NCBI RefSeq assembly: GCF_000738915.1
Contig: NW_026515634.1
Span: forward strand, 723,156 to 787,155
Origin: Nematocida ausubeli
Lineage: Eukaryota
DNA length: 64,000 bases
Reading direction: 5' to 3'
Position 1 is the first letter of the stretch, and every line of letters begins with the position of its first letter. Shown in pieces: positions 13,078 to 40,271 of this stretch. Under the pieces are notes generated by a model. The model searched no databases. It saw only the letters and a program-made list of their open reading frames with translations, and was not told the origin of the DNA. The translations under genes and the position numbers were made by a program.

Positions 13078-13199
13078 AAATAAATAAAAGCAGAAAATAA
13101 ATGAATAATAACCCAAATTAAGCCAGAATATACTAGAAGAGACAAGAGAGTGGAAATATTGTGGGTTTATGGGAATTTGGGATATTTCGAGTTATATGA

Positions 13200-13495
13200 G
13201 CTGAAATATGACTGAAATTACTTAAATTATGCTTAAAACTTCTTAAATTATACTTAAATTATACCATATACTACTTAAAATACGCTTAAAACTACTTAAA
13301 ATCCATCCAAAATCAGTTAAAACTACTTAAATTATACCATATACTACTTGAAATTACTTAAAATATACCATATACTAATTAAAATCACTTTAAACTACTT
13401 AAATTATACCATATACTAATTAAAACCATTTAAAATCACTTAAACTATGACTAAACTATGACTAAAACCACTTAAAATATACCATATACTAAGTA
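13200..13495. repeat. 10-11 bp periodic AT-rich repeat (TACTTAAA.. / TACCATATAC)
   Basis: TTAAA starts at 13222, 13233, 13243, 13254, 13275, 13286, 13296, 13317, 13327 and onward. Confidence 0.85.
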
Positions 13496-13504
13496 AACCC
13501 CCAT

Positions 13505-13810
13505 TTATTTGAACTTCTTAATAATATATCCATATACTAAGTGAGTAGGTATATACGTAGTTGCTTCTTTGTTCTCCAGTGTAATATATTGCATGGTCAT
13601 TCTGGTTATTTTTCCAGTTGAATTATTTATGGAGACTGAGTCACCCACTGAAACTGGCAAATTAAACAGAACAGAAGAAGACTTAGCCATATCCAGAAGG
13701 ACAGGCTTATAAGAATTAAGAATACCAGATCTCCCATCTAGCAAGGATATCCCTGCTACAGCAGAGAGTATAGGCATTTTAGCACTAAAGGAACCAAAGA
13801 GATTTTTCAT
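13505..13810 (-). CDS. Small MscS-family mechanosensitive channel-like protein
   Basis: LFNLPVSVGDSVSINNSTGKITRMTMQYITL...TYIPT matches the MscS beta domain; first ATG at 13810. Confidence 0.7.
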   Translation of the reverse strand: MKNLFGSFSAKMPILSAVAGISLLDGRSGILNSYKPVLLDMAKSSSVLFNLPVSVGDSVSINNSTGKITRMTMQYITLENKEATTYIPTHLVYGYIIKKFK

Positions 13811-14186
13811 GGAAGAATTCAAAAAAGAAATTAAAAGAGCACTTTCCAACAGAGAGACACAGAAGAGAGAAATAAGACAGGCAGAAATACTTAGAATAGT
13901 CAGGGAAAGGACAAAGTACGTATATAATCAGTTTAAAAGGCAAGAAATAACAGAGAAACAGATGGGTGAAATTGCAAGAACAGAAGGTGCATACTTCCCT
14001 TTAATAAAGAGATGGAAAGAGTCAGAAGAAAAAGGAGAAAATAGATTGATTTGTTGCCTTCTTTGCATAAGAAATGGGAAAAGATGCATATGCAGGCGGG
14101 TACCAGGGATACCCTGCATAAATTGTTTGTGCTCTGGGGAGTGCATGGTTAAGCATGGGAATACCACGGATGAACATGGGAAATAG
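13809..14186 (+). CDS. BUD31: Bud31/G10 splicing-associated zinc protein
   Basis: RTKYVY, LIKRWK, CCLLCI..CICR...CINCLCSG reproduce the G10 cysteine pattern. Confidence 0.8.
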   Translation: MEEFKKEIKRALSNRETQKREIRQAEILRIVRERTKYVYNQFKRQEITEKQMGEIARTEGAYFPLIKRWKESEEKGENRLICCLLCIRNGKRCICRRVPGIPCINCLCSGECMVKHGNTTDEHGK

Positions 14187-14264
14187 TAGAGTTCTAAGGG
14201 GGGAGTATTGTAAAGAGAATTATTTCTAGAGGGAAAAGTTATTTATCTGTAAAGATACACAAAA

Positions 14265-14575
14265 CGTATAAAAATCAGTTAGTTTTATCTGTAAAACACA
14301 GGCAAAATCCGTTATCTCTAGTCATAAAACATAGGTAAAATCAATTATTCCTAACCATAAAATATATAAAAAACCCGTTATTTCTAACCATAAAACACAG
14401 GTAAAACCCGTTATTTCTCTCTAAAATATATAAAACCCGTTATCTCTAACCATGAAATATATAAAACCCGTTAGTTTTAGTCATAAAACACATATAAAAC
14501 CCGTTACTTCTAACCACAAAATATATAAAACCGTTACTTCTCTCTAACTACAAAATATACAAACTCGTTATTTAT
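14265..14575. repeat. Minisatellite of ~29-34 bp units with an AAAACCCGTTA core
   Basis: Core copies near 14309, 14342, 14375, 14408, 14437, 14468, 14501, 14531 and 14565. Confidence 0.85.
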
Positions 14576-14642
14576 TTACTCTAAATAATCAACTAAATAA
14601 GACCAAATAAACGAATTCTTCACTCTAAATATCTCAAGGCAC

Positions 14643-16412
14643 CTACATATCCATAATAGCCTTGAATAGATTCCCAGAGAAGTCAAACCTGTAAGAGAAA
14701 GAGACAAATTCCTTCTTTTTCTCACTATCTAGTCTATCTGCACTAAGATATTCCCGTCCTACAACAGCTGCATCTTTCCTTCTGTCTGCCTTTGCAGTAA
14801 CTGACTTATCCTTTATGTTGTACTTTATAATATGCACACAACTAGAGATAGTATCTTCATCATCCCTTAGTACTAACCAATTCACACCCATTTTAGGCAA
14901 AGTACTAGTATACTTTCCTTCTACCTTTATTGTACGCCCGCCTTGATAGTGCAATCTAGGCGTATCAATTGCCTTATCAATAGGATCATCACACAAGAAT
15001 ATCCTGGCAACCGTAGATATAATAGCAGTAGGAATTCTTATACCCCCAGACCCCCCAATAATATATAAGTCATTATCCCGTTTGATAATTGAGGGCATAG
15101 CAGATGAAAGTGGCTGTTTATATGGTTTTATTTGATTTACAGTACTTCCTGTTAGTTTTATACCACTGTACGTTGCAAAGTCAGAGAAAGTGAAATCATC
15201 AATTTGATTGTTCAGAATGATTCCAGTGACAGGATCCATTAAACCAGAACCCCAGTACTGATTAATAGTAGATGTCAGTGCAACTATCATTCCGTCTTTA
15301 TCAATTATATTTATATGGGTTGTCCCATGGTCTTCTACTACACTATTCTTATTAGGAGAGAAAGGACTACTTCCAATGATACTCTGAAGGAGAGTGTCTG
15401 CTACTGTTCTATTTTGGAGGTGAATTTGAAGACTATTTGTGTTTGCTTGTTCATCCTGGAGATCTTCTAATTCTGTCCTAATAGAATATAGTTCGTTATA
15501 TATCCTGATTAAGTAGCTTTGCAGGAGTTCTTCTGATGGAGTACTTGTTGTCTTTATGTGTTCTAGTATATATGCTGCTAGTCTAAGCATATATCCTGTG
15601 GTAGGTAGTGTTGTCGTATATATTTCTGTCTTATTTACTATTTCTGGGAATACTTCCTTCCTAGTGACTTGCTGCTGGCTTAATTCTTCCGGCAGGATGA
15701 CTGTTCCTTCTGAGTTAATGAATTCCAGGAGACTCTTGGAGATTTCACCTGTGAAGAAGCTACTTGGATCTCTACTTATTTCCTTCAAGGTTCTTGCTAA
15801 ATTACGCCTTTGCAATAAGTCATTTTCCTGAAGTATTTTTCCATTTCTTGTATATGCTTCATATAGTCCTCTGTCATTTAGTATTTTTCCCTGAAATTCT
15901 TTTAATTTCTGTGCTAGTACTCTGGGTACAAGAAAGCCATCTTCCAGGATCTTAATTATTTCTGGGAAAAGATCTTCCCATGGGAGAATACCAAAGTCCG
16001 TATGTACTGCAATTAGTCCCATTAGTTCACTAGGTACTGCAATTGACTTCCTGCCTGCACTGGAGTCTTCTTTGTTTTTGTAATTATTTGCATTAGCAGA
16101 GGCTGGTGCCCTCTCCCGGAAATTGTACTCAAAGCACTTTCCATCTGGGATTTTCACTAAAAGGAAACCACCTCCCCCTAGGCCAGATGCAAATGCATTC
16201 ATAGCCCCTACAGCAATTGCTGTTGTAACGGCTGCATCTACTGCATTACCACCTTTCTCCATAATTTTATATCCACATTCTGCAGCCAGTTTTAAATCTG
16301 AGGTTACAACAGGCAGAGTGTATTTTCCCAGATACCCACTCATAAATAGACTAAAATAGATATAAAATACCCCTGTCTGGAATATCTTTCCCTTCACTCC
16401 CTTCCACTTCAT
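14643..16412 (-). CDS. Gamma-glutamyltranspeptidase
   Basis: GGNAVDAAV, SGLGGGGF, NFRERAP, autocatalytic Thr motif HGTTHINIIDKDG, LNNQIDDF, PLSSAMP; N-terminal hydrophobic anchor. Confidence 0.95.
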   Translation of the reverse strand: MKWKGVKGKIFQTGVFYIYFSLFMSGYLGKYTLPVVTSDLKLAAECGYKIMEKGGNAVDAAVTTAIAVGAMNAFASGLGGGGFLLVKIPDGKCFEYNFRERAPASANANNYKNKEDSSAGRKSIAVPSELMGLIAVHTDFGILPWEDLFPEIIKILEDGFLVPRVLAQKLKEFQGKILNDRGLYEAYTRNGKILQENDLLQRRNLARTLKEISRDPSSFFTGEISKSLLEFINSEGTVILPEELSQQQVTRKEVFPEIVNKTEIYTTTLPTTGYMLRLAAYILEHIKTTSTPSEELLQSYLIRIYNELYSIRTELEDLQDEQANTNSLQIHLQNRTVADTLLQSIIGSSPFSPNKNSVVEDHGTTHINIIDKDGMIVALTSTINQYWGSGLMDPVTGIILNNQIDDFTFSDFATYSGIKLTGSTVNQIKPYKQPLSSAMPSIIKRDNDLYIIGGSGGIRIPTAIISTVARIFLCDDPIDKAIDTPRLHYQGGRTIKVEGKYTSTLPKMGVNWLVLRDDEDTISSCVHIIKYNIKDKSVTAKADRRKDAAVVGREYLSADRLDSEKKKEFVSFSYRFDFSGNLFKAIMDM

Positions 16413-16484
16413 TTTATTTATTTTTTATTTATTATTATTATGGAAAAGCCTTCAGAGATTTAGTGCGAAATATTTTTTAATTTT

Positions 16485-17990
16485 ATGGCAGAGCTGCTTA
16501 AACCAGGAGCAACCCAAGAGAAAGCAGATGAAGCAAGAACTTCCTTCTTAGTAGGTGCAATTACAGTGTCAAATATGGTTAAAAGTACACTAGGTCCCAG
16601 GGGTATGTTGAAATTATTGTACTCCCAGAATGGCCAGCCTATTATAACGAATGACGGTGCTACTGTCTTGAAGAATATTCTACCTTCTGGGGCATCTTCA
16701 AAGATCCTCATAAATTCAGCAAAGGAGCATGGGGAGAAGGAAGGAGATGGGACTACTACACTGACAGTTCTAACGGGAGGATTATTGCATGAAGCAGACA
16801 AGCTTATTTTCAATGGGTATCACCCGTATAAGATAATGGGAGAGTACAGGAGTGCACACAAACAAGCCATAGACCTTCTGAGGAGTTTGACTCTGAAGGA
16901 AAATCAGGCAGATAGATTATCTCTTGCTAAGACAACACTTTCTTCAAAGTTCTCACCGATTGAGCTGGAGGCACTGAGTAACTTGGCTATTTCTGCGGCT
17001 AGCAAGATAGAAGGGTCCTTGGAGATGCTTAATATCATAAAGGTAGAAGGCGGTGAGGTGGGTGATTCTTATGTGCACCCAGGCCTATTATTAGAGTGTG
17101 ATGTAGGACCAGGCCAGAAAGAGTCTTTTGATGAGCCGCGTGTGCTTATAATTAATACAAGCCTGGACACGGACAAGGTTAAAATATTCGGGGCAAAGGC
17201 ATCTGTCTCTTCGCCTGCTGAGCTGGAGAAGTTGGAGGCAGCAGAGACCCTAAGGATGCGAAACAAGGTGGAGAGCATTGCCAGATATGCAGATGTAATT
17301 GTAAACAGACAGATTATATACGACTATCCCACACAGGAATTTACAAGACATGGTAAAATATCAATAGAAAGGGCTGATTTCACAGGTGTAGAGATGCTTG
17401 CTAAGGTACTCCATGGGAGAATTCTTAGTACGTTTGATAATGTATCTGATGGGGATATTGGCAGGTGCAGCAGATTTGAGAAAGTGAAGATCCAAGGGAG
17501 GTCATTTTGTTCCTTTACGGGTGGTCTGAAGGATGGAGCATGCACCGTGGTAATTAGGGGGTCATCCCAGGAGATACAGGAGGAGTGCGAGAGGTCCCTG
17601 GTGGGGGCGATAAAGGTCCTGGTGAAAACCAAAGATGAGTACGTGTGCGGGGGAGGCAGTGCAGAAGCTGCAGTTGCACAGATGCTGCAGCCAAAGACAG
17701 AAGGAGAGAGAGCATATGCCAGAGCCCTTTTGGACGTGACACGGGCCCTGGCTGAGAATGCAGGTATCCCAGCGGATGACTTGCTTGATGCGCTGGCTGT
17801 GAAGAATGCCCAGGGCGTGCACACATTTGGTGTGGGGCCAGATGGGGCAGTGTGTATGGAAGCAGCAGGTGTCCGGGAGTCCTTGCGTCTTAAGGAGATC
17901 GTATGGAGCAAAGCCGCAGAGACAGCAGAGGTACTTTTAAGGTGCGATGGAAACATAAAGTGCAGGCCCCGGGAAAGAGTCCATGAGTAG
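16485..17990 (+). CDS. CCT2: Chaperonin CCT/TRiC beta subunit
   Basis: STLGPRGM, TNDGATVLK, GDGTTT, plus the beta-type motifs LDTDKVKIFGA and NRQIIYDYP. Confidence 0.92.
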   Translation: MAELLKPGATQEKADEARTSFLVGAITVSNMVKSTLGPRGMLKLLYSQNGQPIITNDGATVLKNILPSGASSKILINSAKEHGEKEGDGTTTLTVLTGGLLHEADKLIFNGYHPYKIMGEYRSAHKQAIDLLRSLTLKENQADRLSLAKTTLSSKFSPIELEALSNLAISAASKIEGSLEMLNIIKVEGGEVGDSYVHPGLLLECDVGPGQKESFDEPRVLIINTSLDTDKVKIFGAKASVSSPAELEKLEAAETLRMRNKVESIARYADVIVNRQIIYDYPTQEFTRHGKISIERADFTGVEMLAKVLHGRILSTFDNVSDGDIGRCSRFEKVKIQGRSFCSFTGGLKDGACTVVIRGSSQEIQEECERSLVGAIKVLVKTKDEYVCGGGSAEAAVAQMLQPKTEGERAYARALLDVTRALAENAGIPADDLLDALAVKNAQGVHTFGVGPDGAVCMEAAGVRESLRLKEIVWSKAAETAEVLLRCDGNIKCRPRERVHE

Positions 17991-18972
17991 TGGGCTTACT
18001 ATTAATTATAAGAGCAATTAAATTAGTCAAGAAATACTTATTATCTACAGATTTTCTGCTATATTTTATCTTGCCTGAAGACACTTGGATATTCTGCCTG
18101 CAGATCTGCAATTAAAGAGGGATATGTATCTGGGGGAGTGCCAGGCATATGCTGATTTATACGGGTAGAGACACCAGGAGAAAAAAGATTGAAATAGTAT
18201 TGCAGATGGCATATCTAGAAAAAAACATGTCCCTGTGATATTTTGATAAAATTTATCAGATATACGCATAAATATCTAAAAAATGCAAACCTACCGTGGA
18301 AAATCAGAGATCCATCGAAAATGAGTAACCACCTTAAAATATCTTTATTTACTGTCTAGATGCATTATACTGTGCAGTTTGCAAGTATATTTATAAATAT
18401 ATAGGTATTATCCCATTGTATGCGATAAATATATGGTCTTTCTTCTTTCTATGTCATTTTCAGTGGAAATATGGGCTTCTGTGAGTCATTACCTCATGTA
18501 GACCCAGAATAACCAAATACCCTACCCAACTGTCTCAATATACCCCTATATAGTATCTAAAACATCACCTATTTATACAAGTTTTTTACAAATTTCAACT
18601 ACTCCTGCTTTCTTTGCTATCTTCAGATAAATTGCTTGAAGTATTTTCATATTATTCCTATTAGCTCTGGCTCTTTTAACATACTCATAATTGGTTTCTT
18701 CATCTTTCCTTGGTGTTTTATCTTAGAGCATGTGTGACCCAGACAACCCCAGACATGTAAATAACGACTAAAAATAGTATTATAAAGCATCTTAGCTTCA
18801 CCGCATCCTCACGAGACGCCATTATATGCAGATTATTCAATGTATTACTTATAAATAGTCTAATTATCAAGTAGATCATAGCGAATTAATTGAATTCAAC
18901 TTATAGTGAGATATATCGTGTGATATCGTGTGATATAGGGATATAACCGTATGCAGATGGCGTTGGGATGAA

Positions 18973-19200
18973 GTGTATTATATTTTGTCGGTTTAGGATA
19001 ATGTGGATTAAGTCCTGGCATTTTTATAAAAAGTGTATTAAGTCTTGTCACTCTTCCATAAGTCTTGACAAAGTGGCATAAGTTCTGTCATTTTTATAAA
19101 AAGTGCATTAAGTCTTGTCACTCTTCCATAAGTCCTGACAAAGTGTATTAAGTCTTGTCACTCTGCCATAAGTCTTGGCAAAGTGCATTAAGTCTTGTTT
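18973..19200 (+). repeat. Phased array of the GTG(G/T/C)ATTAAGTCTTGTCA motif
   Basis: About 10 copies at 18973, 19003, 19033, 19053, 19073, 19103, 19123, 19143, 19163 and 19183 (20 or 30 bp spacing). Confidence 0.9.
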
Positions 19201-19611
19201 TGTCTAATTTTCCCAATAATTACATGTATAAGTCTACATATACCTTATACACGCCCATATATCCTCTTAAATAAATTCCCTTTGTCTAATATACAATATA
19301 TACGTATTCTTCCTTAAATATACTAATTCTGCACTAAAGTATCTGGAAATTAATTAGTCAGAATTATCACGTATGATTAATAAATATATTCTGGAAATAT
19401 ACCATAAATAAATGTGATATCCTTGTGGTATATAAATACAGACAAAAAATAAACCACAGGGATAGAAATATCCCTCACAAAAAAATGAAAAAACTAAAAA
19501 ATGAACATAACGGTCAATTAGAAAACAAAAACAAGAAAACAAATCAAAACTAAAAACAAAAACCAACCGCATTTTAATTAATTAATAAAAATAACGACAT
19601 TTTAATAAAAA

Positions 19612-20367
19612 TCACTCTTTAACTATTTTCACACGCTTCACAACAGAATGAGAATAAGCCTTAATAGTACTAAGCACAACAAGAATGAATATGCAACAAA
19701 ATAATACAGAAATAATTCTATTCTTAATATGCGACCCAAATACAGATATTTCACCTATTTCAGCAACGCACTTATTAGAGCCCGTTGTAATATAGTCCAT
19801 TGCCACATCCAGCCTATCAATCTTATCAGATTGTGAAATTACAACGGTTTTTAGTTCTCTAATTAATTCTGTTATAATATGCACAGATTTATATACGGCA
19901 TCAATTCCCGTTGTATCTTTATGCATCTGTATATGCTTAGTCTGTATTTTTTCAATTTCCTGCAGAGATATATGCATTCTTTTAATTAAGGTGTCAATTT
20001 TATACTGGAAATGTATGGAAATTGACTCTACTAGGCCGTGATTTATGGATTTATGGAATTTCTGTGAGAAATAGTCTAAGGCTGCCCTGGCCTTAGTCAG
20101 GATTACTGTTATATTCTGCTTATTTTCTTCAATTTTATCAATTATCTGTGACTTAGATGTGAATCTGGGGATGGAATATTTTATGCACTCTTTTTCAACG
20201 GAAATTATTAATTCTTCCAGTTGTATTAGGCTATTTGAGATCCTGCTGAACAAAAATTGCACTTCTGTTTTCTCTTTTATCTTGATTTTCTCGTATAAAA
20301 TTACCCTTTTCTTCTTTAATTCTTCACTTCTGTTGCGCATTCTTGGGTGTTTGTTTGTTTCGTGCAT
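19612..20367 (-). CDS. Syntaxin-family Qa-SNARE (Tlg2/STX16-like)
   Basis: SNARE motif ITELIRELKTVVISQSDKIDRLD followed by a C-terminal transmembrane helix. Confidence 0.8.
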   Translation of the reverse strand: MHETNKHPRMRNRSEELKKKRVILYEKIKIKEKTEVQFLFSRISNSLIQLEELIISVEKECIKYSIPRFTSKSQIIDKIEENKQNITVILTKARAALDYFSQKFHKSINHGLVESISIHFQYKIDTLIKRMHISLQEIEKIQTKHIQMHKDTTGIDAVYKSVHIITELIRELKTVVISQSDKIDRLDVAMDYITTGSNKCVAEIGEISVFGSHIKNRIISVLFCCIFILVVLSTIKAYSHSVVKRVKIVKE

Positions 20368-20541
20368 GTTTTGTGGTTGTTTTGTGTTTTATGGTTGATT
20401 TTTGGTTGTTATTGAGGGTTTCAGGTAATATATTTTGACAGCATATTACCATACTAGGAAATAAGATTCCATATTAGGAAATTCCACATTAGGAAATAAT
20501 ACGTTATATTTTATTTTTATTCATTAATAATACGTTATAAT

Positions 20542-20780
20542 TAGTCTATACATATATACTTATTATTTATCACTTGCTTAGTATATTTTATATACAGGAT
20601 AGTCTACATTATATACGTGATATACATATTAGTATATTTTATATACAGGATAGTCTACATTATATACAGGATATATTGCTTAGTCTACATTATATACGTG
20701 ATATACATATTAGTCAGGTTTATATACAGGATAGTCTACATTATATACAGCATGCACTCCCTTAGTCTATTTTATATACA
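20542..20780 (+). repeat. Phased array of the TAGTCTACATTATATAC motif
   Basis: Copies at 20579, 20600, 20630, 20651, 20681, 20711, 20732 and 20763. Confidence 0.9.
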
Positions 20781-20784
20781 CAAA

Positions 20785-20915
20785 TATATCTCTCCAATGG
20801 TCCCCCCTTGTATCCTCTATATTCCCAATACCTCCAATGGTCCCCCCTTACATCCCTCTCATAAATATAATATAAGGGGGTACCCTTACAGACCCTCTTT
20901 TTCCCGTATATATTT
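20785..20915 (-). repeat. Left arm of an inverted repeat (partner at 24015-24195)
   Basis: Its reverse complement TATATACGGGAAAAAGAGGGTCTGTAAGGGT..CCCCTT..ATTATATTTATGAGAGGGATGTAAGGG matches from 24020 onward. Confidence 0.9.
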
Positions 20916-20920
20916 ACTAT

Positions 20921-21220
20921 TTATTTATAATTTTCTTCTATAAAACTATTATAATATTCATCATATGATGTGATTGTAATATGTTTATCATCTGTATCTG
21001 GCTGTATATTTATATTTATATCTGTCTTATTTTGTCTTAATCTCTTATCTTTTGCTCTTTTATTTTGGAACCATATTTGGACTGTTCTAATTGGAATATT
21101 AAAGTCCTTTGAGATTTCCTTACGCAGGATATTATTTGGCTTTTGGTTTTGTTCGTATACGGCGGACAGGAATTTAGTTTGCGTTGTAGTTAGTCTGGGT
21201 CTTTTTATTTTTTTGTCCAT
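20921..21220 (-). CDS. Small homeodomain protein (Q50)
   Basis: KRPRLTTTQTKFL...KPNNILRKEIS...VQIWFQNKRAKDKR. Confidence 0.93.
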   Translation of the reverse strand: MDKKIKRPRLTTTQTKFLSAVYEQNQKPNNILRKEISKDFNIPIRTVQIWFQNKRAKDKRLRQNKTDININIQPDTDDKHITITSYDEYYNSFIEENYK

Positions 21221-21354
21221 CCTGTGGGAATCTCTTAATTATTTATTTATAGGCTGGGGATCATAGTGATTTCACCTGGATTTAATAGAGTGCTCACAGT
21301 ATTATGTATATATTAAGGAGGCCAGGAAATATGTGAAAAATAGGTTAATTATAA

Positions 21355-22045
21355 TAGGATTATAGCATGGTACAGGACTTAATCCACTTTGTCAGGACTT
21401 ATGGCAGAGTGACAAGACTTAATCCACTCTATCCTAAACTTGACAAGACTTAATCCACTTATAAACTCACCAAGACTTATTACATATACACCATAAGTTA
21501 TGTCATATATTACACTATTTAATCCACTAGCACCATAAGTCCTGCATAACCCCACTAACTACACCATAAACACATTACTTATTCCACTATGTCCATAAGT
21601 CCTGCACATGTTTTAATTATTTATTACACCCATGGAATAAGTCTTGTCTGTGCATTACTTACGGCCTCAGTGGAATAAGTAATAGTAAAATTGTCAGAAT
21701 ATATGGACAAAGTGTAATATATCCTGCAATATATGACTAATTACAATACAATTCCATTATTTATTACACCATGTCCATAATTCTTGTCAATTTCACCATT
21801 AATTATTCCACTAGTATCATAAGTTGTGGATTTGTGTTGTAATTAGTCAGGAAATCCACAATATATTACACCCACTCCATAATTCTTGTCAATTTCATCA
21901 TTACTTATTCCACTAGTATCATAAGTCCTGCAATATAAGACTAACTCTAACACAAATTCACAATATATTACACTATATCCATATATCCTGCAATATAAGA
22001 CTAATTACAACACAAATCCACAATATATTACACTATACATAATAT
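21355..22045. repeat. Array of the same ACAAGACTTAATCCAC motif family in mixed orientation, with higher-order repeats
   Basis: ACTT cores at 21377, 21397, 21417 and 21448; ACTTA-N-TAAGT dyads; internal duplications with 102 bp and 60 bp offsets. Confidence 0.85.
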
Positions 22046-22099
22046 ATTCTGTCTCTCCCGTATATATTTTATACTAATTTTAAACTATAATTTCATTTA

Positions 22100-22420
22100 T
22101 TATCTTGTTGATCCAAAGCCAATTAGTGTCACCCCCTGCTTCTTCAGTGAATACAATACATCTTGGCAGGAAACTGTCTTTCTCTTTCCGTGATTGCAAT
22201 ATGTCACTGCGCATCTGATGATTCCTTCAAGATACGTCTTAGCCATGTTGTTTATCTCACTGTATACTCCTGCACTAACTCTCTTTACTCCTCCTCTTCT
22301 GGCAAGGCGTCTGATTGCTGGCTTGGATATTCCCATTGTCTGTTGTGTTGTCTTTCTGTGTCTTTTTGCTGATCCTTTTCCTAATCCTTTTCCTCCCTTT
22401 CCTCTTCCTGCGACTGTCAT
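22100..22420 (-). CDS. H4: Histone H4
   Basis: [41 protein letters not shown]. Confidence 0.97.
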
Positions 22421-22440
22421 AATTTTAAAAAACAAAAAAT

Positions 22441-22505
22441 TATTTATAGTTTTATTTGGCGGGAAAAAAGGGCGGGAACGGGAATGGGCGGGGGTTATCC
22501 CGCCG
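22441..22505 (-). promoter_or_regulatory. H4 promoter: CTATAAATA box plus clustered TTCCCGCC (E2F-like) motifs
   Basis: TATTTATAG at 22441-22449; GGCGGGAAA at 22458-22466; GGCGGGAA at 22471-22478. Confidence 0.65.
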
Positions 22506-22556
22506 GAAATTGCAAGAATTATGAGTTTATAGGGGAATATGGGGTTATTATAGGGA

Positions 22557-23470
22557 GTGGATTAAGTTTTGTCAGGTTTTGAGAAAGTGGAATAAGTCTT
22601 GGCATGTTTATAAAAAGTGGAAAAAGTCTTATTAGTGTGGAATAAATTATGGCAATGTGGAAAAAGTCTTGTAGGAGTGGAATAAGTCCTGGCAGGTTTG
22701 GGGAGAGAAGGAAAAAGTTCTGCCATATTTATAAAAAATGGAATAAGTCTTGTTTAGTGTGAAATAAGTTGTGACAAAGTGGAATAAGTTGTGTAATATG
22801 TGCCATAAGTCTTGTTAGTGCGGAATAAATTGTGACATTTATTAGAAGGTGTGGAAAAAGTCTTGGTGGTTTAGGGGAGAGTAGGAAAAGTCCTGTCATT
22901 TTTAGGATGATGTGGAAAAAGTCTTGTTTACCCCATAATAAAGTGGATTAAGTCTTGTTTGCCTCATAATAAAGTGGAATAAGTCTTACACTCTATGTAA
23001 TAAGTTCTGACAAAGTGGATTAAGTCCTGTTCACCTCACAATAAAGTGGATTAAGTTCTATCATATTTAGAATAAGGTGGATTAAATTATGTCATATTTA
23101 GGATAAGGTGTAAAAAGTCCTGTCATTTTCTCAATAAGGTGGAATAAGTCCTGTCACATTAATTTGCATTACTTATTCCGCAGGTATAAAAAGTCATGTC
23201 CATTCTATCATTATTTATTCCGCAGGTATAAAAAGTCCTACCCATATTATATATATATTTACAACACAATCCCTTTCATTACTTTTTCCATCTACTCCAA
23301 AAGTCCCGCCATAATTTACAAGACTTAATCCACTCATACCATAAGTCTTGTCACAAATAAATAACAAATTATACCACAATCCCCTCCATTACTTATTCCA
23401 CTCACACCAAAAGTCCTGTCAATATCACCATTACTTAATCGACCCTACCAAAAGTCCTGCACCAAGACAC
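22557..23470. repeat. Phased GTGGA(T/A)(T/A)AAGTC(T/C)TG array filling the H4-H3 intergenic region
   Basis: 23 direct copies from 22557 to 23139 at 20/21/30/31 bp spacing, then inverted and dyad copies up to ~23470. Confidence 0.95.
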
Positions 23471-23526
23471 ACCCTATTTTCACCAAACAAAAAGTACCCC
23501 CACACAAAATATAAAATATTTTCTAC

Positions 23527-23578
23527 TTTCCCGCCTTTTTCCCCCCGCCCATTTCCCCCGCCTTTTTGCCTATAAATA
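23527..23578 (+). promoter_or_regulatory. H3 promoter: TTTCCCGCC (E2F-like) motifs plus CTATAAATA box
   Basis: TTTCCCGCC at 23527-23535, CCCGCC variants between 23541 and 23562, CTATAAATA at 23570-23578. Confidence 0.65.
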
Positions 23579-23597
23579 AAACAAGAATTTTCACAGC

Positions 23598-23993
23598 ATG
23601 GCAAGAACCAAGCAGACAGCAAGAAAGAGCACAGGAGGAAAAGCACCAAGAAAGCAATTAGCCACAAAGGCAGCAAAGAAAAGCACAGTAGCCACAAAAA
23701 GACCACACAGATTCAAGGCAGGCACAGTGGCCCTAAGGGAAATAAGAAAGTACCAAAAGACAACGGATTTATTAATCAGAAAATTACCATTCCAGAGACT
23801 AGTCAGGGAAGTAGCCTCAGAGTTTAAGGCGGAGGTTCGATTCCAGTCATCTTCAATTCTTGCAATCCAGGAAAGTCTGGAGAATTATCTCACAGGATTA
23901 TTTGAAGACAGCAACAGATGCGCAATTCATGCGAAGAGAGTCACATTAATGGCACGGGACTTGCATTTGGTGCACAAGATAAAATCAATATAA
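23598..23993 (+). CDS. H3: Histone H3
   Basis: [53 protein letters not shown]. Confidence 0.97.
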
Positions 23994-24014
23994 TAAAATG
24001 TTTAAATTTAATTA

Positions 24015-24195
24015 GTAATTATATACGGGAAAAAGAGGGTCTGTAAGGGTGTCCCCTTGGATTATATTTATGAGAGGGATGTAAGGGTACCCCCTTAGAA
24101 GTGTTTATTATTTTAGTGGATGCAAGGGGGGAGTATTGGATTATATATTTATAAGAGGGATGTAAGGGAGGAGTATTGGAGGTATTGAGAAATGG
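24015..24195 (+). repeat. Right arm of an inverted repeat (partner at 20785-20915), built of GGATGTAAGGG subunits
   Basis: Direct sequence match to the reverse complement of the left arm. Confidence 0.9.
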
Positions 24196-24225
24196 ACGGA
24201 GTTTATGATAAATTAGTAGGAAATG

Positions 24226-24395
24226 ACAAGACTTAATCCACTTTGACAGAACTTATTACGCGAGGTGCAAGACTTAATCCACCTTATCCCAAAAATGACA
24301 GAACTTAATCCACTTTGACAAAACTTAATCCACTCTATCCTAAAACCAACAAGACTTAATCCACCTTATCCTAAAACCTACAAGACTTAATCCGC
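24226..24395 (-). repeat. Phased ACAAGACTTAATCCAC array (reverse orientation of the H4-H3 motif)
   Basis: ACTT cores at 24231, 24251, 24272, 24303, 24323, 24354 and 24385. Confidence 0.92.
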
Positions 24396-24800
24396 AAACT
24401 AATATATTCAATCTATCCTAAAGTACCCACAATAAGTACACGCAAGAAACAGACAATCTCCCTAAATACCCATTCACACTATAAATACCACAAAACACCC
24501 AAATATATATATATGCGTTTCCTACTGTGTGGAAGATGAAAAAATTTAAAGACCATCAGATTGAAGGGGTAGAGTGGATGTGGGAGAGAGTTAGGAATCG
24601 GAAGGGCGTTGTATTGAGTGATGAAATGGGGACAGGGAAGACCCTTCAGTCTTTGGAGATAATTCAGAGAGTCTGGAACTCCATTGGAAAGTCAGTTCTT
24701 ATTGTCGCACCGTGCACCCTCCTGCACAACTGGGAGAAGGAAATGGAGAAGTTTCAGTTTCCAATTCCTGCCCGAATTGTTAGATCTAGTGACACGAATG

Positions 24801-24900
24801 NNNNNNNNNNNNNNNNNNNNNNNNNNNNNNNNNNNNNNNNNNNNNNNNNNNNNNNNNNNNNNNNNNNNNNNNNNNNNNNNNNNNNNNNNNNNNNNNNNNN
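24801..24900. other. Assembly gap (100 N) flanked by an artefactual 296-bp duplication
   Basis: 24505-24800 appears identical to 24901-25196. Confidence 0.95.
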
Positions 24901-24931
24901 ATATATATATGCGTTTCCTACTGTGTGGAAG

Positions 24932-26425
24932 ATGAAAAAATTTAAAGACCATCAGATTGAAGGGGTAGAGTGGATGTGGGAGAGAGTTAGGAATCGGAAG
25001 GGCGTTGTATTGAGTGATGAAATGGGGACAGGGAAGACCCTTCAGTCTTTGGAGATAATTCAGAGAGTCTGGAACTCCATTGGAAAGTCAGTTCTTATTG
25101 TCGCACCGTGCACCCTCCTGCACAACTGGGAGAAGGAAATGGAGAAGTTTCAGTTTCCAATTCCTGCCCGAATTGTTAGATCTAGTGACACGAATGGGGT
25201 GCAATTAGTTAATGCAGCAGACGGAGAATATATTCTAATAGTGAATTATGAGCTGCTTCAGAAGAAGAAGAGTGTATTCCTGCAGACATTCTTTGATTTG
25301 GTTGTATTTGATGAAGCACAAAGGATAAAGAACCATACGACATGGGTCTCCAGGATATCCAGAACTATTGATGCAATGTGCAAGATATGCGTCACAGGTA
25401 CGCCTATACAGAATAGTCTGTCAGAACTATGGAGCATAGCAGAGACTGTGAGACCTGGGTACTTTGGGGACTATACCACGTTCAAGGCTGAAATAGAAGA
25501 CCCCTTGAAGAAGAGCACACTGAAGCACGCGACTGAATTGGAGAAAAGGAAAGGGGCTTCAATTAAGAAGCACATTAATGAGCTTATTGCGGATGTAGTA
25601 ATAAGAAGAACGAAGAAGGAAATATTCAATGAGGAGTTTAAGAAAAGGGAAGGACTATTTGTCCCAAAGAGAAAGGAGTATGTGATATACTGCGGATTCA
25701 CAGAGGAGCAGGAGGCTGTATATAATGACGTGCTGAATATGGACCTAGTTAAGAGCACTGTTCTTGGCAGGAAATCTCCTTTGAAGAGCATATCACACCT
25801 GAAGAGCGTATGCAGCCATCCATCGCTTGTGGATAAAAGAGTAACCAGCTGGCATGCAAGTGGAAAGATGAAAGTGGTCCATAGATTGCTGTTTATGTGG
25901 AGGTCTTCAAATAGAAAGATCATTCTGTTTAGTCAGTACAAGAACACGCTTAAGATTCTTGAAAGATTCATAGACACGCATGTATATAGGATTGACGGGG
26001 ACAGTCCAATAGGCAAGAGAGAAGAAATATTTAAAATATTTGGAAGTAAAGACGGGATGGAGGTGCTTTTAATGAGCATGAAGGTGGGGGGCGTTGGAGT
26101 GAATTTGCAGAAGAGTGATACTGTGATTCTATTTGACATTGACTGGAACCCATTTAATGAGGAGCAAGCTAAAGGAAGGGCACACAGAATAGGACAGGAG
26201 AAAGAAGTGGAAGTGTACAGATTACTGTGCAAAGGCACAATTGAAGAGACCATACAGATGATACAAGATGTGAAAAGAACTATTTCGAAGGGGGTTCTGG
26301 ACGGGATAAGCTCGAAGAAAGTCTTTGATAAGGTGGATCTGTGCAAACTATTCCATTACTCACACGACCCAACTGATGTTACAGATATAGATAATCTTGT
26401 CCCAACGGAAGAGACTGACCTATAG
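24932..26425 (+). CDS. SNF2-family ATPase/helicase (Rad26/ERCC6-like), ~497 aa
   Basis: LSDEMGTGKT, DEAQRIKN, TGTPIQNSLSELWS, SGKM, GGVGVNL, DWNP, QAKGRAHRIGQ. Confidence 0.93.
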   Translation: MKKFKDHQIEGVEWMWERVRNRKGVVLSDEMGTGKTLQSLEIIQRVWNSIGKSVLIVAPCTLLHNWEKEMEKFQFPIPARIVRSSDTNGVQLVNAADGEYILIVNYELLQKKKSVFLQTFFDLVVFDEAQRIKNHTTWVSRISRTIDAMCKICVTGTPIQNSLSELWSIAETVRPGYFGDYTTFKAEIEDPLKKSTLKHATELEKRKGASIKKHINELIADVVIRRTKKEIFNEEFKKREGLFVPKRKEYVIYCGFTEEQEAVYNDVLNMDLVKSTVLGRKSPLKSISHLKSVCSHPSLVDKRVTSWHASGKMKVVHRLLFMWRSSNRKIILFSQYKNTLKILERFIDTHVYRIDGDSPIGKREEIFKIFGSKDGMEVLLMSMKVGGVGVNLQKSDTVILFDIDWNPFNEEQAKGRAHRIGQEKEVEVYRLLCKGTIEETIQMIQDVKRTISKGVLDGISSKKVFDKVDLCKLFHYSHDPTDVTDIDNLVPTEETDL

Positions 26426-28818: not shown

Positions 28819-31668
28819 CTAAAAAAAAGACTTAATCCATGCAATACAAGATCTCACAATTCCTCTTACCCATTGGTATAAACTCTTTTTTATAACAATT
28901 GTTCCTGGGCACCGTCTTCCAAGTTGTTCTAATACTTTGTTGTATTTTTCTACACTCTGTTCACTGCCTTCTGAGCACAGCATAGTCTTATTTCTCTCTA
29001 AAACTAGAATAGTATTTATGAAGTATGGGATATGGTCTGATAGATTAGGATCATGTGGGGTAGTCAATTCTTCTGTTTTTATAAGGTTGTAAATAAGAAC
29101 AATGGCATTTAGGCTAGGGTTTGGCCCCATACATGCATTAATAAGCCAGCCCACGTAGATATAGTTGAGGCTTTCTTCTGGCGCCTTGGTTTTCTCAAGT
29201 ATAGATCGAAGCTTTGCAAATTGAGCTATTTTCCCTTGTGCCACTATAACATTAAATATGCTTCTGTTCTGCTGTTTGCTTCCCAGTAAAGAATACATAG
29301 CATTTCTACGTATGGGCTGATTGAGATAGTTTTCTATACATTTTACTGCAAATCCTATTGATTTCTTTTTTAGTATACATCCATACATAGAATCTATATT
29401 AGGCCTATAAGAATTTTGCACTAATATATTGTTGAATAATAAATAGCTAAGCTGTGGATAATGTGTCTGGCAACTTGAAAGGAAGAGAAGAGGGGACAGC
29501 ATACGGCCCCGTATATACTCTTTATCAAGTGGAGCACTTCCCAGAACGTTTGCAACAAAGCGTGTTGCAGGATTGGTTGGGCTCAATTCGTTTTCTATCA
29601 AGTGGAGTATAAATTGTTCTATAATATGGATCTTACACTCTTTGTTAGCAATCTTTCCTATTAAGAATAATTTAGATACATTTTCGTATCCAGTACTTAA
29701 AATAGCGTCTGTTCTCTCTATAGGATAACGCCAGCTATACCGCTGCGCCATAAAAGATGTATCTTCTATTTCCAAGTCAATGTACCGATTAACAGTATAC
29801 ATAATGTAGCTGCATGTGTCTGTATACATCCTTCTTACTTCTTCATACTGGTTTGTATTGCTAGAGTCTATGCCTGAACCCTCAATAAAATTAAAAGTAG
29901 CATAGTCTCTTTTTAGTTGTAATATAAAAGTGCTATTTTTATAGTTATGCGTAGAAACAATATGAATTCCACCAAGAATATCGGCGCTTTCATCTGGTCT
30001 GTGGCCCAGTTTCATGCCCCAATCCATTACTAATATGCCTAATTTAGGAGATGCTAAAGACCTAAAAACTTCCTGCATCTTAGATGCAATATCATGTATT
30101 TTGCTGATGTCTAGATTGTTTTCTCTACATCTTTCTTCTATATACTCAACTAGATCCACTATGTCTGTGCCAGTCTTCTGCCCGGTTATTTCTGCTATGA
30201 CAAGCAAAATATTTGCAAGACCAGACTCAAGCTGGTTTCTGTTGTGTCTGTACTGGATTTTCTTGTTGTCCAGGCAAGAAACGACCTTACTCCACTCCAT
30301 GTGCATTTCTAAGGTAATAGTGTCAGTTGGCTTAGGATACTTTTTAAAGAAGGCAGTTACTGCTGGGCTTACTTCTTCTCCCATGTGGCTGGTTTCGTAC
30401 TCTTTTTTCTCTGGGTTGTATGCCAAGCAGCAGAACAGCCCAAGAAGAGCTGTTTCTGTGTGGTTTATGTAGTCTAAAGTGCGGTCCTCCTCAAAGCCAG
30501 ATAGATCCTGCTTGTACTGCGGTACTTTGACAGCTATTGGAAGCGTGCTTTCCTTCCAGAAGGAAAAGGCTGCTTCTTCAGTTTTGTTCTTTACCAGATC
30601 ACAGAAAGACGTAATATATTTCATGCTTGCACTGGCAGACTCTTCGCGGAGGAACAGTTTATGGAATATTTGACTCTTCTTATTGCTACTTGCATTTCCT
30701 GTGTTATATTGGTCTATGGCAGCCTGCTGCTCTTCCTTAGCACCGCTCTGGCCAATGAGAAGCTCGCTCTTCTCCTCTTCTGTCATTTGGTCAAGAAGCA
30801 GCTCATGCACTGCCTCCACAAAACTTGCATACTCCGCAAAGCTGTCAATGAAGTGATATATGTACGTCTGCATGAGGAACTCTAAGCTGTTCAAAAAGTC
30901 TCCCGTGTCAAATGCCTCCTGGCTGGACGGCATTACAAATGCGGGTGCTTTTCTAATTACTATTCTGTCTTTGCACCGTACACAGAAGTTGACAATCTCT
31001 TCCACTTCACTTTGGTAAATGCTGTCGATGCGCAGATTTGTAGCAGGGTCAATGCCTGCAGTGTACAGCTCTACATCTGCAAACTTTTTTCCCTTGCATG
31101 TCTTGCTCTTTATGACAAGTCTCTTTTTCTCCCCTGAGTGGTCCACGCCTATTTGGACGTCAATCTCTTCTGAAAGAAGCAGCAGCGCTGCAAGAATGTA
31201 CTTGGCATCCTGCTTAACATGGTCTGCCCTTAAGAAGTTTGTAAGTGCATTTGGCCGGGTAGTCTCAATTGAGAGGTCTCCATGCTCGGATGGAAACATC
31301 TTTAAGAGCTGTGCATGGTACGCGCTGAGATATCTTCCATCAGAGCCACTAACACCCAGCTCTTTGTATATCTTATCATTTGCAGGCGTTCTTGTAAATC
31401 CGTACTTTTGTGTGCTGTTAACTGCCGATCCATTTTCATATAACGCATAGTCTGTTTCTATTTCAGGAGAAAAAACCGCTTGTTGTACATGTATCCGTTT
31501 TGGAAGCCCATATATCCGCAATAGCAGATTCAGAGGGCCCTCTGGGTTAATGAATAGCCGTTGGCTGCCTTTTATCTTAGTTTCATGCGCTCTTCTTATA
31601 TCTTCCACAGAAACTCTTGCAAAGAGATTCTGCACCATAAACAAACTAGCAATCACCCTGTAGATCAT
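28819..31668 (-). CDS. Secreted-type large-gene-family protein (Nematocida-type), 949 aa
   Basis: Signal-peptide-like N-terminus; family blocks FSPEIE, LLKMFPS, KYILAALLLLSE, FLMQTYIYHFI, ETALLGLFCCLAY. Confidence 0.88.
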   Translation of the reverse strand: MIYRVIASLFMVQNLFARVSVEDIRRAHETKIKGSQRLFINPEGPLNLLLRIYGLPKRIHVQQAVFSPEIETDYALYENGSAVNSTQKYGFTRTPANDKIYKELGVSGSDGRYLSAYHAQLLKMFPSEHGDLSIETTRPNALTNFLRADHVKQDAKYILAALLLLSEEIDVQIGVDHSGEKKRLVIKSKTCKGKKFADVELYTAGIDPATNLRIDSIYQSEVEEIVNFCVRCKDRIVIRKAPAFVMPSSQEAFDTGDFLNSLEFLMQTYIYHFIDSFAEYASFVEAVHELLLDQMTEEEKSELLIGQSGAKEEQQAAIDQYNTGNASSNKKSQIFHKLFLREESASASMKYITSFCDLVKNKTEEAAFSFWKESTLPIAVKVPQYKQDLSGFEEDRTLDYINHTETALLGLFCCLAYNPEKKEYETSHMGEEVSPAVTAFFKKYPKPTDTITLEMHMEWSKVVSCLDNKKIQYRHNRNQLESGLANILLVIAEITGQKTGTDIVDLVEYIEERCRENNLDISKIHDIASKMQEVFRSLASPKLGILVMDWGMKLGHRPDESADILGGIHIVSTHNYKNSTFILQLKRDYATFNFIEGSGIDSSNTNQYEEVRRMYTDTCSYIMYTVNRYIDLEIEDTSFMAQRYSWRYPIERTDAILSTGYENVSKLFLIGKIANKECKIHIIEQFILHLIENELSPTNPATRFVANVLGSAPLDKEYIRGRMLSPLLFLSSCQTHYPQLSYLLFNNILVQNSYRPNIDSMYGCILKKKSIGFAVKCIENYLNQPIRRNAMYSLLGSKQQNRSIFNVIVAQGKIAQFAKLRSILEKTKAPEESLNYIYVGWLINACMGPNPSLNAIVLIYNLIKTEELTTPHDPNLSDHIPYFINTILVLERNKTMLCSEGSEQSVEKYNKVLEQLGRRCPGTIVIKKSLYQWVRGIVRSCIAWIKSFF

Positions 31669-31817
31669 TTAATGGAAAATGAAAAATTTTAACTTAACTA
31701 CTACAGCACCTGGTTTAAGTTGCACTGAAATAACAGCTATTTCAGGTATATAACTCGAACAACTTTTCCAGCACATTTATGGCGTACTTTCACATATTCA
31801 TTCAATCATATGAAGTG

Positions 31818-31913
31818 GCAATGTATTTAAAAATGACAGAGTACTTAAGACAAATTTATTATAAGTGCAGAAGCCAAGAGTATTTTTTCTAAAAATAAAA
31901 GTTGTTTTCTTAG
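31818..31913 (-). repeat. 96-bp inverted repeat copy (partner at 40272-40367), cut off by the gap
   Basis: Reverse complement matches 40272-40367 with about 2 mismatches. Confidence 0.92.
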
Positions 31914-32878: not shown

Positions 32879-33110
32879 TTCTTTCCCAGAGTTAGAAATG
32901 CAGATGTATGCTGGTCTTTGCCTTCCAAGATTTCGTTGTAGACTACTAGAATATAAGAGGCTTTGTTTTTTTCTGCTAAAATTAAATTAATTAGAGTTAA
33001 TTCGGGAATACTTTTAATTAAAAGTATATTAATTTTAACTATAAGCACAGAATACTGATAAATTGCTAATTTTATGGTCTATAAATAGACAACAAAAAGT
33101 AAGCTATAGA

Positions 33111-36179: not shown

Positions 36180-36929
36180 TGTGTTAAAGAAGGTAGAGAA
36201 GAGTGCGAATAAGTTTGCATAAATTCTAAAATTACCCAATGAATCTTAGTACAAGTAAGAAGGCTTTAAATAAACAAAGTGGTTTAAAAATGTGTTATAC
36301 TTCTTGTGTGTGCCTGTGTAAATAGGCTATTTTAAAATATATCACTTAAGAGTGCACTAACTAGCAGTGGCTAGAATTATTCTAAAGCGAGTCTATTTGG
36401 TTTTGTACACTGGCATATTAACAGCTGGTTACTGCATATTTCCTATGAATAAAATGTTTTAATTTTAGCTGTGCTACTTGAAGAAGCTTTGTAAAAGTAT
36501 TTTAGCTAGAATTTGGATTGTATCAGGCCAATAAACGTATATGGTGTGTATAAAGTGTAGTAAACCACTACATCATTATCCCAAGGCCATGAGAGAACAT
36601 CACAGATGGAAAATAATTCCAGAAAGAATTCTATAAATAAAAAGACCACTAAGCGTATGAAAATATTAAAAGAAGCGGTACATGCTAGCAGTAAGAAATA
36701 CATCTAACAAGAATAGAAAAGGGTACAGTCACCAAAAACATCCAGATAGTAAATATAAACCTCTCTTGGCAACTACCCCGTATATTATACTACCTCCTGA
36801 CTGGAACTTTGCCCCTCTTTTGAACATATCAATTCTATCATTCAGATTGGAAAACTCCGTAATAAAAAGAAATCTCTGATAAAGTGGAATTTTCAAAAAT
36901 ATAAATATTGAAATTTTTTAGATAAGAAT

Positions 36930-40223: not shown

Positions 40224-40271
40224 GAAAGCTTTAATAACCCAAAAAATAGTGGCTAAATATAATTCCAAGTG

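What the first reader, a model, noticed from the sequence alone, without database searches (positions are those of the whole stretch)
18973..24395. One motif family forms arrays of alternating orientation across a 5.4-kb homeobox-H4-H3-SNF2 domain
Seen: the motif occurs as a + array at 18973-19200 (20/30 spacing), a - array at 21377-21460 (20,20,31), a + array at 22557-23150 and a - array at 24231-24395 (20,21,31,20,31,31). I saw no such arrays in 26-64 kb. Three of the embedded genes (H3, H4, the SNF2 ATPase) are chromatin genes and one is a DNA-binding homeodomain. Inference: a regional cis-system that organises or co-regulates this cluster, or a regional centromere-like domain interspersed with genes. 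Opposed arrays could also pair, loop or recombine.
Basis: partly seen in the sequence, partly recalled or inferred. Interest (0 to 1): 0.8.

Follow-up and report, generated by a model that had tools for sequence, protein, structure and literature searches.

The report
Helically phased repeat cluster, candidate centromere
Around the histone H3/H4 genes of the worm parasite Nematocida ausubeli, a 17-base motif sits in four opposed arrays spaced at whole turns of the DNA helix and recurs at other places in the genome, which makes the cluster a possible but untested marker of this parasite's still unmapped centromeres.

Summary
In this Nematocida ausubeli (microsporidian) window a 17-bp motif, GTGGAWWAAGTYYTGTC, forms four arrays (+,-,+,-) at 19.0-24.4 kb: 35 strong copies inside, none outside; 36 of 38 spacings are 0 or 1 mod 10. 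A t-SNARE gene lies inside, so the first array sits between convergent gene ends. Unrelated 10-bp-phased repeats extend the domain to 13.2 kb: 7 consecutive gaps are periodic, 0 of 15 to the right. The family recurs elsewhere in the genome: 37 contigs lie on one array, only 4 recognised as this locus, with phasing kept (12 of 14 joints). It is therefore not a private control system of these genes, and no transposon ends were found. Best guess (0.35): a nucleosome-phasing repeat domain marking a short regional centromere, shared between chromosomes. Non-centromeric chromatin or regulatory arrays (0.25) and a neutral minisatellite (0.25) are close rivals. No genome assembly was held, so the decisive count of clusters per chromosome is open.

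The parts
18973..19199 (+). Array A1: 7 scored copies of GTGGAWWAAGTYYTGTC plus half-sites, period 10.0 bp; lies between the convergent 3' ends of CCT2 and the t-SNARE gene
21371..21485 (-). Array A2: 5 copies (20, 20, 31, 27), 150-265 bp upstream of the homeobox gene
21478..22042 (.). Module B: decayed copies and + half-sites (CCATAAGTYYTG) in both orientations, WW period 10.15 bp
22557..23155 (+). Array A3: 22 phased copies (a 23rd weak one at 23184 is off phase), period 10.22 bp, between the divergent H4 and H3 genes
23281..23461 (.). Short module-B-like block with one minus copy (23333) facing a plus half-site (a 10-bp inverted pair) upstream of H3
24225..24395 (-). Array A4: 7 copies (20, 21, 31, 20, 31, 31), period 10.27 bp, between H3 and the ERCC6-like gene
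13219..13491 (+). Unrelated phased repeat family (TACTTAAAWT; spacings 21/31/32/41), WW period 10.35 bp
14271..14573 (+). Unrelated phased repeat family (AAAACCCGTTAT; 29-33 bp), between the convergent BUD31 and gamma-glutamyltranspeptidase ends
20574..20779 (+). Unrelated phased repeat family (TAGTCTACATT / TATATACAGGA; 21/30/31/51 bp)
20782..20941 (-). 3' flank of the homeobox gene; inverted copy (80% over 164 nt) of the H3 3' flank
23988..24191 (+). 3' flank of H3; partner of the inverted repeat, with 40-bp sub-repeats
16485..17990 (+). CCT2 (T-complex protein 1 beta) gene, left neighbour
19612..20367 (-). t-SNARE-like gene (name from a cluster member; no Pfam hit)
20921..21220 (-). Homeobox gene, 99 aa, recognition helix WFQNKR (Q50)
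22100..22420 (-). Histone H4 gene
22458..22466 (-). E2F-like site TTTCCCGCC upstream of the H4 TATA box (E2F consensus recalled)
23527..23535 (+). E2F-like site TTTCCCGCC upstream of the H3 TATA box
23598..23993 (+). Histone H3 gene (canonical N-terminal tail, paired with H4)
24932..26425 (+). SNF2-family ATPase, ERCC-6-like; its first 286 bp are repeated before the N gap (24505-24790)

Best explanation
The arrays are one cluster of a genome-wide family of helically phased 20/31-bp minisatellite units, set in an 11-kb stretch where every large intergenic gap is 10-bp periodic, and this stretch most likely marks a short regional centromere. Shown: the motif, its opposed arrays, the 10.0-10.3-bp phase, WW/SS counter-phasing, the local clustering, and recurrence of phased arrays at other loci in several strains. 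Inferred mechanism: the phased units would fix the rotational setting of nucleosomes (possibly CENP-A nucleosomes in one gap) or present binding sites on one face of the helix; length changes would be tolerated only in whole turns; and exchange between clustered centromeres would keep one motif family alike on different chromosomes while private families arise in neighbouring gaps. The embedded genes would be bystanders with their own promoters.
For: Phase: 36 of 38 spacings are 0/1 mod 10, best periods 10.00, 9.87, 10.22, 10.27. WW dinucleotides are phased at 9.95-10.65 bp in 8 of 8 blocks (0-17 of 300 shuffles reach them) and in 0 of 3 control gaps (93-131 of 300), with SS offset 3-6 bp. At least four unrelated repeat families share the phase in 7 consecutive gaps of 28, which points to a property of the region, not of one motif or gene. 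The family recurs: run X1 lays 37 contigs on A4, 4 recognised as this locus; the pile-up is also in X4, X6 and X9 from two other studies. 12 of 14 non-self joints keep the phase. Of 6 non-self records shown, 5 are at most 2 kb with the match near an end and the sixth (20.6 kb) has it 1.6 kb from its end, as for A1 in the 37.6-kb record here. If other clusters break into 4-6 records like this one, the counts give about 5-17 clusters; N. parisii is put at fewer than eight chromosomes (PMC3514677, passage). A second ERCC6-like copy lies on another scaffold and the two-copy contig starts 110 bp from A4. Precedents: regularly spaced 21-bp motif arrays at Wickerhamomyces anomalus centromeres (PMC12711049) and an oriented IR-motif at Candida tropicalis centromeres (PMC7292649), both read as passages.
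Against: No chromosome map: no genome was held, and only 8 of 58 pieces and 8 X1 rows were shown. The cluster estimate assumes clustering; if arrays stand singly the same counts give 11-33 loci. Short contigs may also come from heterozygous sites. Core histone genes and other intact genes lie inside, and the largest gap is only 1.6 kb, against 3.7-7.9 kb in W. anomalus (PMC12711049). There is no GC3 trough and the gaps are no more AT-rich than others. No retroelement cluster lies in the domain, unlike the candidates in Microsporidia sp. MB (PMC13174016). Slippage on an internally 10-bp-repetitive unit gives 10n spacings without selection. Spacers are also conserved (0.69 against 0.85 for the core), as in an ordinary minisatellite. 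A 325-genome survey saw no satellite centromeres in its 49 fungi (10.64898/2026.09.17.752431, passages).
Confidence: 0.35

Rival explanations
1. Non-centromeric chromatin or regulatory arrays: a sequence-specific protein (or the DNA's own bending) sets nucleosomes at dozens of loci, for example beside S-phase or stage-specific genes; this is the first reader's cis-system made genome-wide.
For: A2, A3, the 23333 block and A4 each end or start 140-270 bp from a start codon. The motif core is better kept than the spacer, with AA-GT-TG nearly invariant. Gene order H4-(H3)-ERCC6 is conserved in 6 of 6 other Nematocida species labels where both accessions are shown. Up to 33-67 other records would fit a regulon.
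Against: A1 and the 14.3-kb array lie between convergent 3' ends; a small two-frame ORF beside A1 has no credible homologue. Array orientation does not track gene direction. The histone pair has separate E2F-like sites, the only 2 exact matches in the window. Unrelated motif families share the phase, which one factor would not explain.
Confidence: 0.25
2. A neutral dispersed minisatellite, possibly the relic of Foldback/Mutator-type subterminal repeats, spread by slippage, gene conversion and local copying.
For: TRF calls the blocks as ordinary tandem repeats. The 31-bp unit is conserved through its spacer. Local duplication is active here: the homeobox and H3 3' flanks are 80% identical. A1/A2 and A3/A4 form facing pairs up to 93% complementary over 57 nt, like arms with subterminal repeats (PMC5225508, passages; 10/20/31-bp units in Drosophila FB elements recalled).
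Against: No shared termini: 0 of 12 flank pairs are clearly alike (best 11 of 300 shuffles), and similarity to other loci stops at the last motif copy (summed depth 519 to 70 at 24222). The genes between the arms are syntenic in other species, so they were not captured. No transposase was found among the 35 proteins scanned. Four unrelated families converge on one period in one stretch.
Confidence: 0.25
3. A replication origin zone: opposed, helically phased initiator sites load helicases in both directions beside the early-replicating histone locus (analogy to opposed DnaA/ORC sites recalled).
For: Opposed phased arrays; tens of related loci in a genome of 3.1-4.7 Mb (genus range, PMC10393165) is the right order for origins.
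Against: Four arrays within 5.4 kb and none in the other 58 kb is too clumped for origin spacing; no unwinding element or skew switch stands out; no data on microsporidian origin sequences was found.
Confidence: 0.1

Closest known systems
Wickerhamomyces anomalus centromeres (PMC12711049, passages)
   Same: Short degenerate motif in regularly spaced arrays of 5-9 copies, shared between loci.
   Different: There: one array per large gap (3.7-7.9 kb), almost all on one strand, mapped by Hi-C. Here: four opposed arrays in small gaps between intact genes, spacing in whole helical turns, not mapped to chromosomes.
Candida tropicalis inverted-repeat centromeres with the 12-bp IR-motif (PMC7292649, passages)
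   Same: Motif clusters in opposed orientation, shared between loci.
   Different: There the motifs lie in kilobase inverted repeats around a gene-free CENP-A core; here there is no long inverted repeat and no gene-free core.
Candidate microsporidian centromeres: Microsporidia sp. MB (PMC13174016), Antonospora locustae (PMC7643970), Encephalitozoon (PMC10158259); passages
   Same: Same phylum; positions unconfirmed in all.
   Different: Those are retroelement/CpG-methylated regions, 25-kb ultra-low-GC regions, or no shared sequence at all; none is described as a phased short-motif array in the passages read.
Foldback / Mutator-like subterminal repeats (Muta1, PMC5225508 passages; Drosophila FB 10/20/31-bp units recalled)
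   Same: Short motif in tandem with variable spacers, in facing arrays.
   Different: No shared terminal motif, no defined ends, genes between the arms are ancestral neighbours.
Divergent H3-H4 gene pair of fungi and Encephalitozoon (PMC10158259, passage)
   Same: Same gene arrangement; ordinary.
   Different: The phased arrays in and around the pair are not mentioned in the passages read.

Membership tests
Motif-defined or short regional fungal centromere | One locus per chromosome | tested here: inconclusive
   At most 33 or about 67 other records; 5-17 clusters if built like this one, 11-33 loci if single; no assembly held.
Motif-defined or short regional fungal centromere | CENP-A / kinetochore occupancy | not testable with these tools
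   Needs ChIP or CUT&RUN.
Motif-defined or short regional fungal centromere | Inter-chromosomal Hi-C clustering | not testable with these tools
   No Hi-C run among the 24 listed.
Motif-defined or short regional fungal centromere | Motif enriched locally and shared between loci | tested here: met
   35 inside, 0 outside; other loci in 4 of 4 runs laid; whether they are on other chromosomes is not shown.
Motif-defined or short regional fungal centromere | Large gene-free interval | tested here: not met
   Gaps of 0.43-1.6 kb with intact genes between.
Motif-defined or short regional fungal centromere | AT-rich trough / low GC3 in flanking genes | tested here: not met
   2-kb GC dips to 0.30, the lowest outside N-diluted bins, but the gaps are like other gaps and GC3 of CCT2 and ERCC6 is 0.46-0.48.
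Foldback / MULE transposon ends | Subterminal tandem motif in facing arms | tested here: met
   A1/A2 and A3/A4 face each other; resemblance only.
Foldback / MULE transposon ends | Shared terminal motif at the outer ends | tested here: not met
   0 of 12 flank pairs clearly alike; homology to other loci ends at the motif.
Foldback / MULE transposon ends | 8-9 bp target-site duplication | not tested
   No element ends could be defined.
Foldback / MULE transposon ends | Internal DNA is transposase or captured, non-syntenic sequence | tested here: not met
   Internal genes are syntenic in other species; no transposase among 35 proteins scanned.
Dispersed minisatellite | Head-to-tail units of 10-60 bp at several loci | tested here: met
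Homeodomain autoregulatory array | Invariant TAAT core matching residue 50 of the encoded homeodomain | tested here: not met
   The position is A in 47% and T in 52% of copies, so TAATCC is in about half; the protein is Q50, while TAATCC is the K50 site (recalled).

The most novel reading that the evidence does not exclude
Nematocida centromeres are gene-interspersed domains of about 5-11 kb, one per chromosome, defined by opposed arrays of a 17-bp motif held in helical phase: the first sequence-defined centromere in Microsporidia, here built around the core histone genes.
Probability: 0.3. Interest if true: 0.8.

Novelty: new variant of a known kind. Interest (0 to 1): 0.55.

Why it matters
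Centromere positions are unconfirmed in any microsporidian (PMC13174016, passage), and Nematocida has no genetic tools (PMC10393165, passage on nematode-infecting microsporidia). A short, scannable motif turns that open question into a simple test on existing assemblies, followed by ChIP or Hi-C. If it is a centromere or origin, it is also the obvious part for a stable episome in this model parasite of C. elegans. If it is only a minisatellite, it is still an unusual case of several unrelated repeats converging on the nucleosomal period in a highly compact genome.

Tried and rejected
Whole-genome scan: no genome held. Two-copy pattern in metagenome contigs: 1 hit, L001, a bacterial coding 21-bp (heptad) repeat, judged chance; viral contigs 0. 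Rfam: only tRNA-Ser at 49305 by gathering score; one sub-threshold snoRNA match in 12.8-24.8 kb (E 0.24). Expression: no RNA holder listed; no RNA run was laid. Inversion polymorphism: 'opposite strand' joints have sides of at most 46 letters in the rows shown and fit paralogous loci; contigs cannot show rare inversions. Strain-level conservation of core against spacer could not be read: the variant table was cut (40 of 893 rows). Small two-frame ORF at 18573-18885 as a hidden gene served by A1: the downstream 49-aa piece has no candidate and one hit to an unrelated repeat protein through summed weak repeats; not accepted as a gene. Host origin of the motif: host-depth contigs pile on H3/H4 in X4 but not on the array bins. 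Hairpin function: only local inverted pairs fold; A4 does not (z 0.8). Earlier scan notes: nothing on this genome or sequence. Literature: ten searches gave no description of this motif; PMC10393165 has 0 hits for motif, intergenic and centromer. PMC3514677 mentions five candidate promoter elements of N. parisii in a supplement that could not be read; one of them might be this motif.
Full report
Organism and genes. Named members of the protein clusters identify the window as Nematocida ausubeli, a microsporidian of Caenorhabditis. No whole genome is held. The region reads CCT2 (16485-17990 +), t-SNARE-like (19612-20367 -), homeobox (20921-21220 -), H4 (22100-22420 -), H3 (23598-23993 +) and an ERCC-6-like SNF2 ATPase (24932-26425 +). 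The stretch 24505-24790 is a 100% copy of 24901-25186 across a 100-N gap, most simply a scaffolding artefact. By accession numbers, H4 and ERCC6 are two genes apart in 6 of 6 other species labels where both are shown, and the homeobox gene is next to H4 in N. parisii. The divergent H3-H4 pair is the usual fungal and Encephalitozoon arrangement (PMC10158259, passage). The gene cluster is therefore old and ordinary.

The observation. A 15-letter pattern with one mismatch gives 36 matches, all in 19003-24395. A matrix from them (consensus GTGGAWWAAGTYYTGTC) gives 35 sites of at least 16 bits inside and 0 outside, against 0.09 expected from a Markov model of the region. One isolated copy lies at 28840.

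Phase. Among 42 copies of at least 9 bits assigned to the four arrays (six isolated copies at 21632, 21913, 21916, 23333, 23336 and 23401 were left out), 36 of 38 spacings are 0 or 1 mod 10 (binomial p about 3e-23 if copies were placed independently, which tandem copies are not). Best periods are 10.00, 9.87, 10.22 and 10.27 bp, below the 10.5 of free DNA and near the 10.2 of nucleosomal DNA (values recalled). The 31-bp unit is conserved through its spacer (core 0.85, spacer 0.69, 13 units), so the family is a 20/31-bp minisatellite with 10-bp sub-units, not isolated sites in random DNA.

A wider domain. All 7 gaps of at least 250 bp from 13078 to 24535 peak at 9.8-10.5 bp (amplitude 0.004-0.017 at 10.2), the next gap to the left is borderline (0.0038), and none of the 15 gaps right of 26.4 kb exceeds 0.0025. 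Seven marked gaps in a row among 28 has p about 2e-5. The other gaps hold unrelated families at 13.2, 14.3 and 20.6 kb. WW dinucleotides are phased in 8 of 8 blocks and 0 of 3 control gaps, with SS roughly half a turn off; two of the eight (14.3 kb, A2) are weak, reached by 10 and 17 of 300 shuffles. This is the pattern recalled for rotational nucleosome positioning, though any 10n tandem repeat will tend to show it.

The family is not private. Public runs were found and contigs of four were laid on 12.5-24.8 kb at 80% likeness. In X1, flagged by the tool as a possible source, single-copy DNA has depth 33; 75 records were laid, 50 only partly, and summed depth rises only over the arrays and module B, not over H3 or H4. 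The same pile-up appears in X4, X6 (one study) and X9 (another). The 13.2- and 14.3-kb families show no such rise in X1. On A4 alone, 37 X1 records were laid; 4 of the 8 rows shown belong to this locus, so at most 33 come from elsewhere, and the non-self rows shown have depths of 31-35. Summed depth is no copy number, so I count records. Similarity stops at the last motif copy. Of 21 joint rows shown with intervening letters, two were duplicates, two ran into module B and were left out, and three were this locus; 12 of the other 14 imply spacings within 0.15 turn of phase (one row printed as 0 is a 20-bp step). One joint (19090 to 23158, opposite strands, in X1 and X9) indicates opposed copies in another record.

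Are the other copies clustered? Only six non-self records were shown: 385, 1055, 1134, 1256 and 1978 bp with the match near an end, and 20.6 kb with the match 1.6 kb from its end. That mirrors this locus, where arrays 1-2 kb apart cut the assembly into short pieces beside a 37.6-kb contig. Heterozygous sites could also make short contigs. If clusters break into 4-6 records, the counts give about 5-17 clusters; if arrays stand singly, 11-33 loci. N. parisii is put at fewer than eight chromosomes (PMC3514677, passage). Under even spreading of 33-67 arrays over 3.1-4.7 Mb, four in 5.45 kb somewhere in the genome has p about 3e-4 to 2e-2.

Against a control system for these genes. A1 lies between two convergent 3' ends, as does the 14.3-kb array. 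A small two-frame ORF beside A1 has no credible homologue. Arrays are sense to one gene and antisense to others. The histones have their own E2F-like TTTCCCGCC sites, the only two exact matches in the window; microsporidia keep E2F and DP (PMC3514677, passage). The homeobox, H4 and H3 genes share an exact TATATACGGGA just past their stops, so some co-regulation may exist, but through elements other than the arrays. The motif's TAATCC is present in only about half the copies and the homeodomain is Q50.

Against transposon ends. The four arrays share no flanks (0 of 12 pairs clearly alike), the enclosed genes are syntenic, and no transposase was found among 35 window proteins scanned. An earlier AI note on a domesticated Mutator transposase in microsporidia (e1-599766) is an untested lead for a binding protein.

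Mechanism. I commit, at 0.35, to a centromere-associated domain: phased repeats would position nucleosomes or present sites on one helical face, and exchange between centromeres would keep one family alike across loci. The duplicated ERCC6-like gene, whose two-copy contig starts 110 bp from A4 and whose second copy is on another scaffold, fits such exchange but does not show it. Against it stand the embedded genes, the small gaps, the lack of a GC3 trough and of retroelements in the domain. Regulatory or chromatin arrays (0.25), a neutral minisatellite (0.25) and an origin zone (0.1) remain.

Comparison and novelty. The closest systems are the motif-array centromeres of W. anomalus (PMC12711049) and the IR-motif of C. 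tropicalis (PMC7292649); the domain works like them at best, and membership is not shown. Microsporidian candidates so far are of other kinds (PMC13174016, PMC7643970, PMC10158259). All of these, and PMC3514677, PMC10393165, PMC5225508, 10.1101/2025.05.12.652816 and 10.64898/2026.09.17.752431, were read as term passages; PMC11592040 as abstract and outline. Ten searches found no description of the motif, but an unreadable supplement of PMC3514677 lists five N. parisii promoter motifs that may include it. Verdict: a real, non-random feature, larger than reported and shared across the genome; function undecided; interest 0.55.

Noticed in passing
window 20902-20912 (-), 22056-22066 (-), 24020-24030 (+): An exact TATATACGGGA lies about 8-35 nt past the stop codons of the homeobox, H4 and H3 genes, behind an AATAAA at the stop; possibly a shared 3'-end element. 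The homeobox and H3 3' flanks are 80% identical over 164 nt.
   Followed up: partly
window 22458-22500 and 23527-23567: E2F-like TTTCCCGCC / GGCGGG clusters directly upstream of the TATA boxes of H4 and H3; the only two exact sites in 64 kb.
   Followed up: partly
window 24505-26425: The ERCC6-like gene has a second, near-identical copy on another scaffold in N. ausubeli (contig at twice the depth), with the shared stretch starting 110 bp from array A4.
   Followed up: partly
window 24505-24900: 286-bp perfect duplicate across a 100-N gap; likely scaffolding artefact that makes the SNF2 ORF look longer.
   Followed up: yes
window 18573-18885 (-): Two overlapping short frames, the first with a hydrophobic stretch; no credible homologue for the second.
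   Followed up: partly
window 62502-62954 (+): 150-aa ORF whose start (WTFT ... IIIKGYIEF) recalls motifs I and II of CRESS-DNA virus Rep proteins (recalled); no Pfam hit at E 0.01.
   Followed up: no
window 55865-57562 (-): 565-aa ORF with a weak integrase core (rve, E 2.6e-5); possible retroelement relic about 31 kb from the arrays.
   Followed up: no
window 46749-49277 (-): 842-aa reverse-transcriptase-domain protein (RVT_1, E 9e-11), telomerase-like by size (inference).
   Followed up: no
window 13505-13810 (-): 101-aa ORF with only a mechanosensitive-channel beta domain, ending inside the edge of the 13.2-kb repeat block; perhaps a fragment.
   Followed up: no
window 28819-42400: Several 550-1100-aa ORFs without Pfam hits, two of them close paralogues (33111-36179, 36930-40223); likely Nematocida large gene families.
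   Followed up: no
L001 9917-10042: Bacterial gene with a 21-bp coding heptad repeat that matches the motif pattern by chance.
   Followed up: yes
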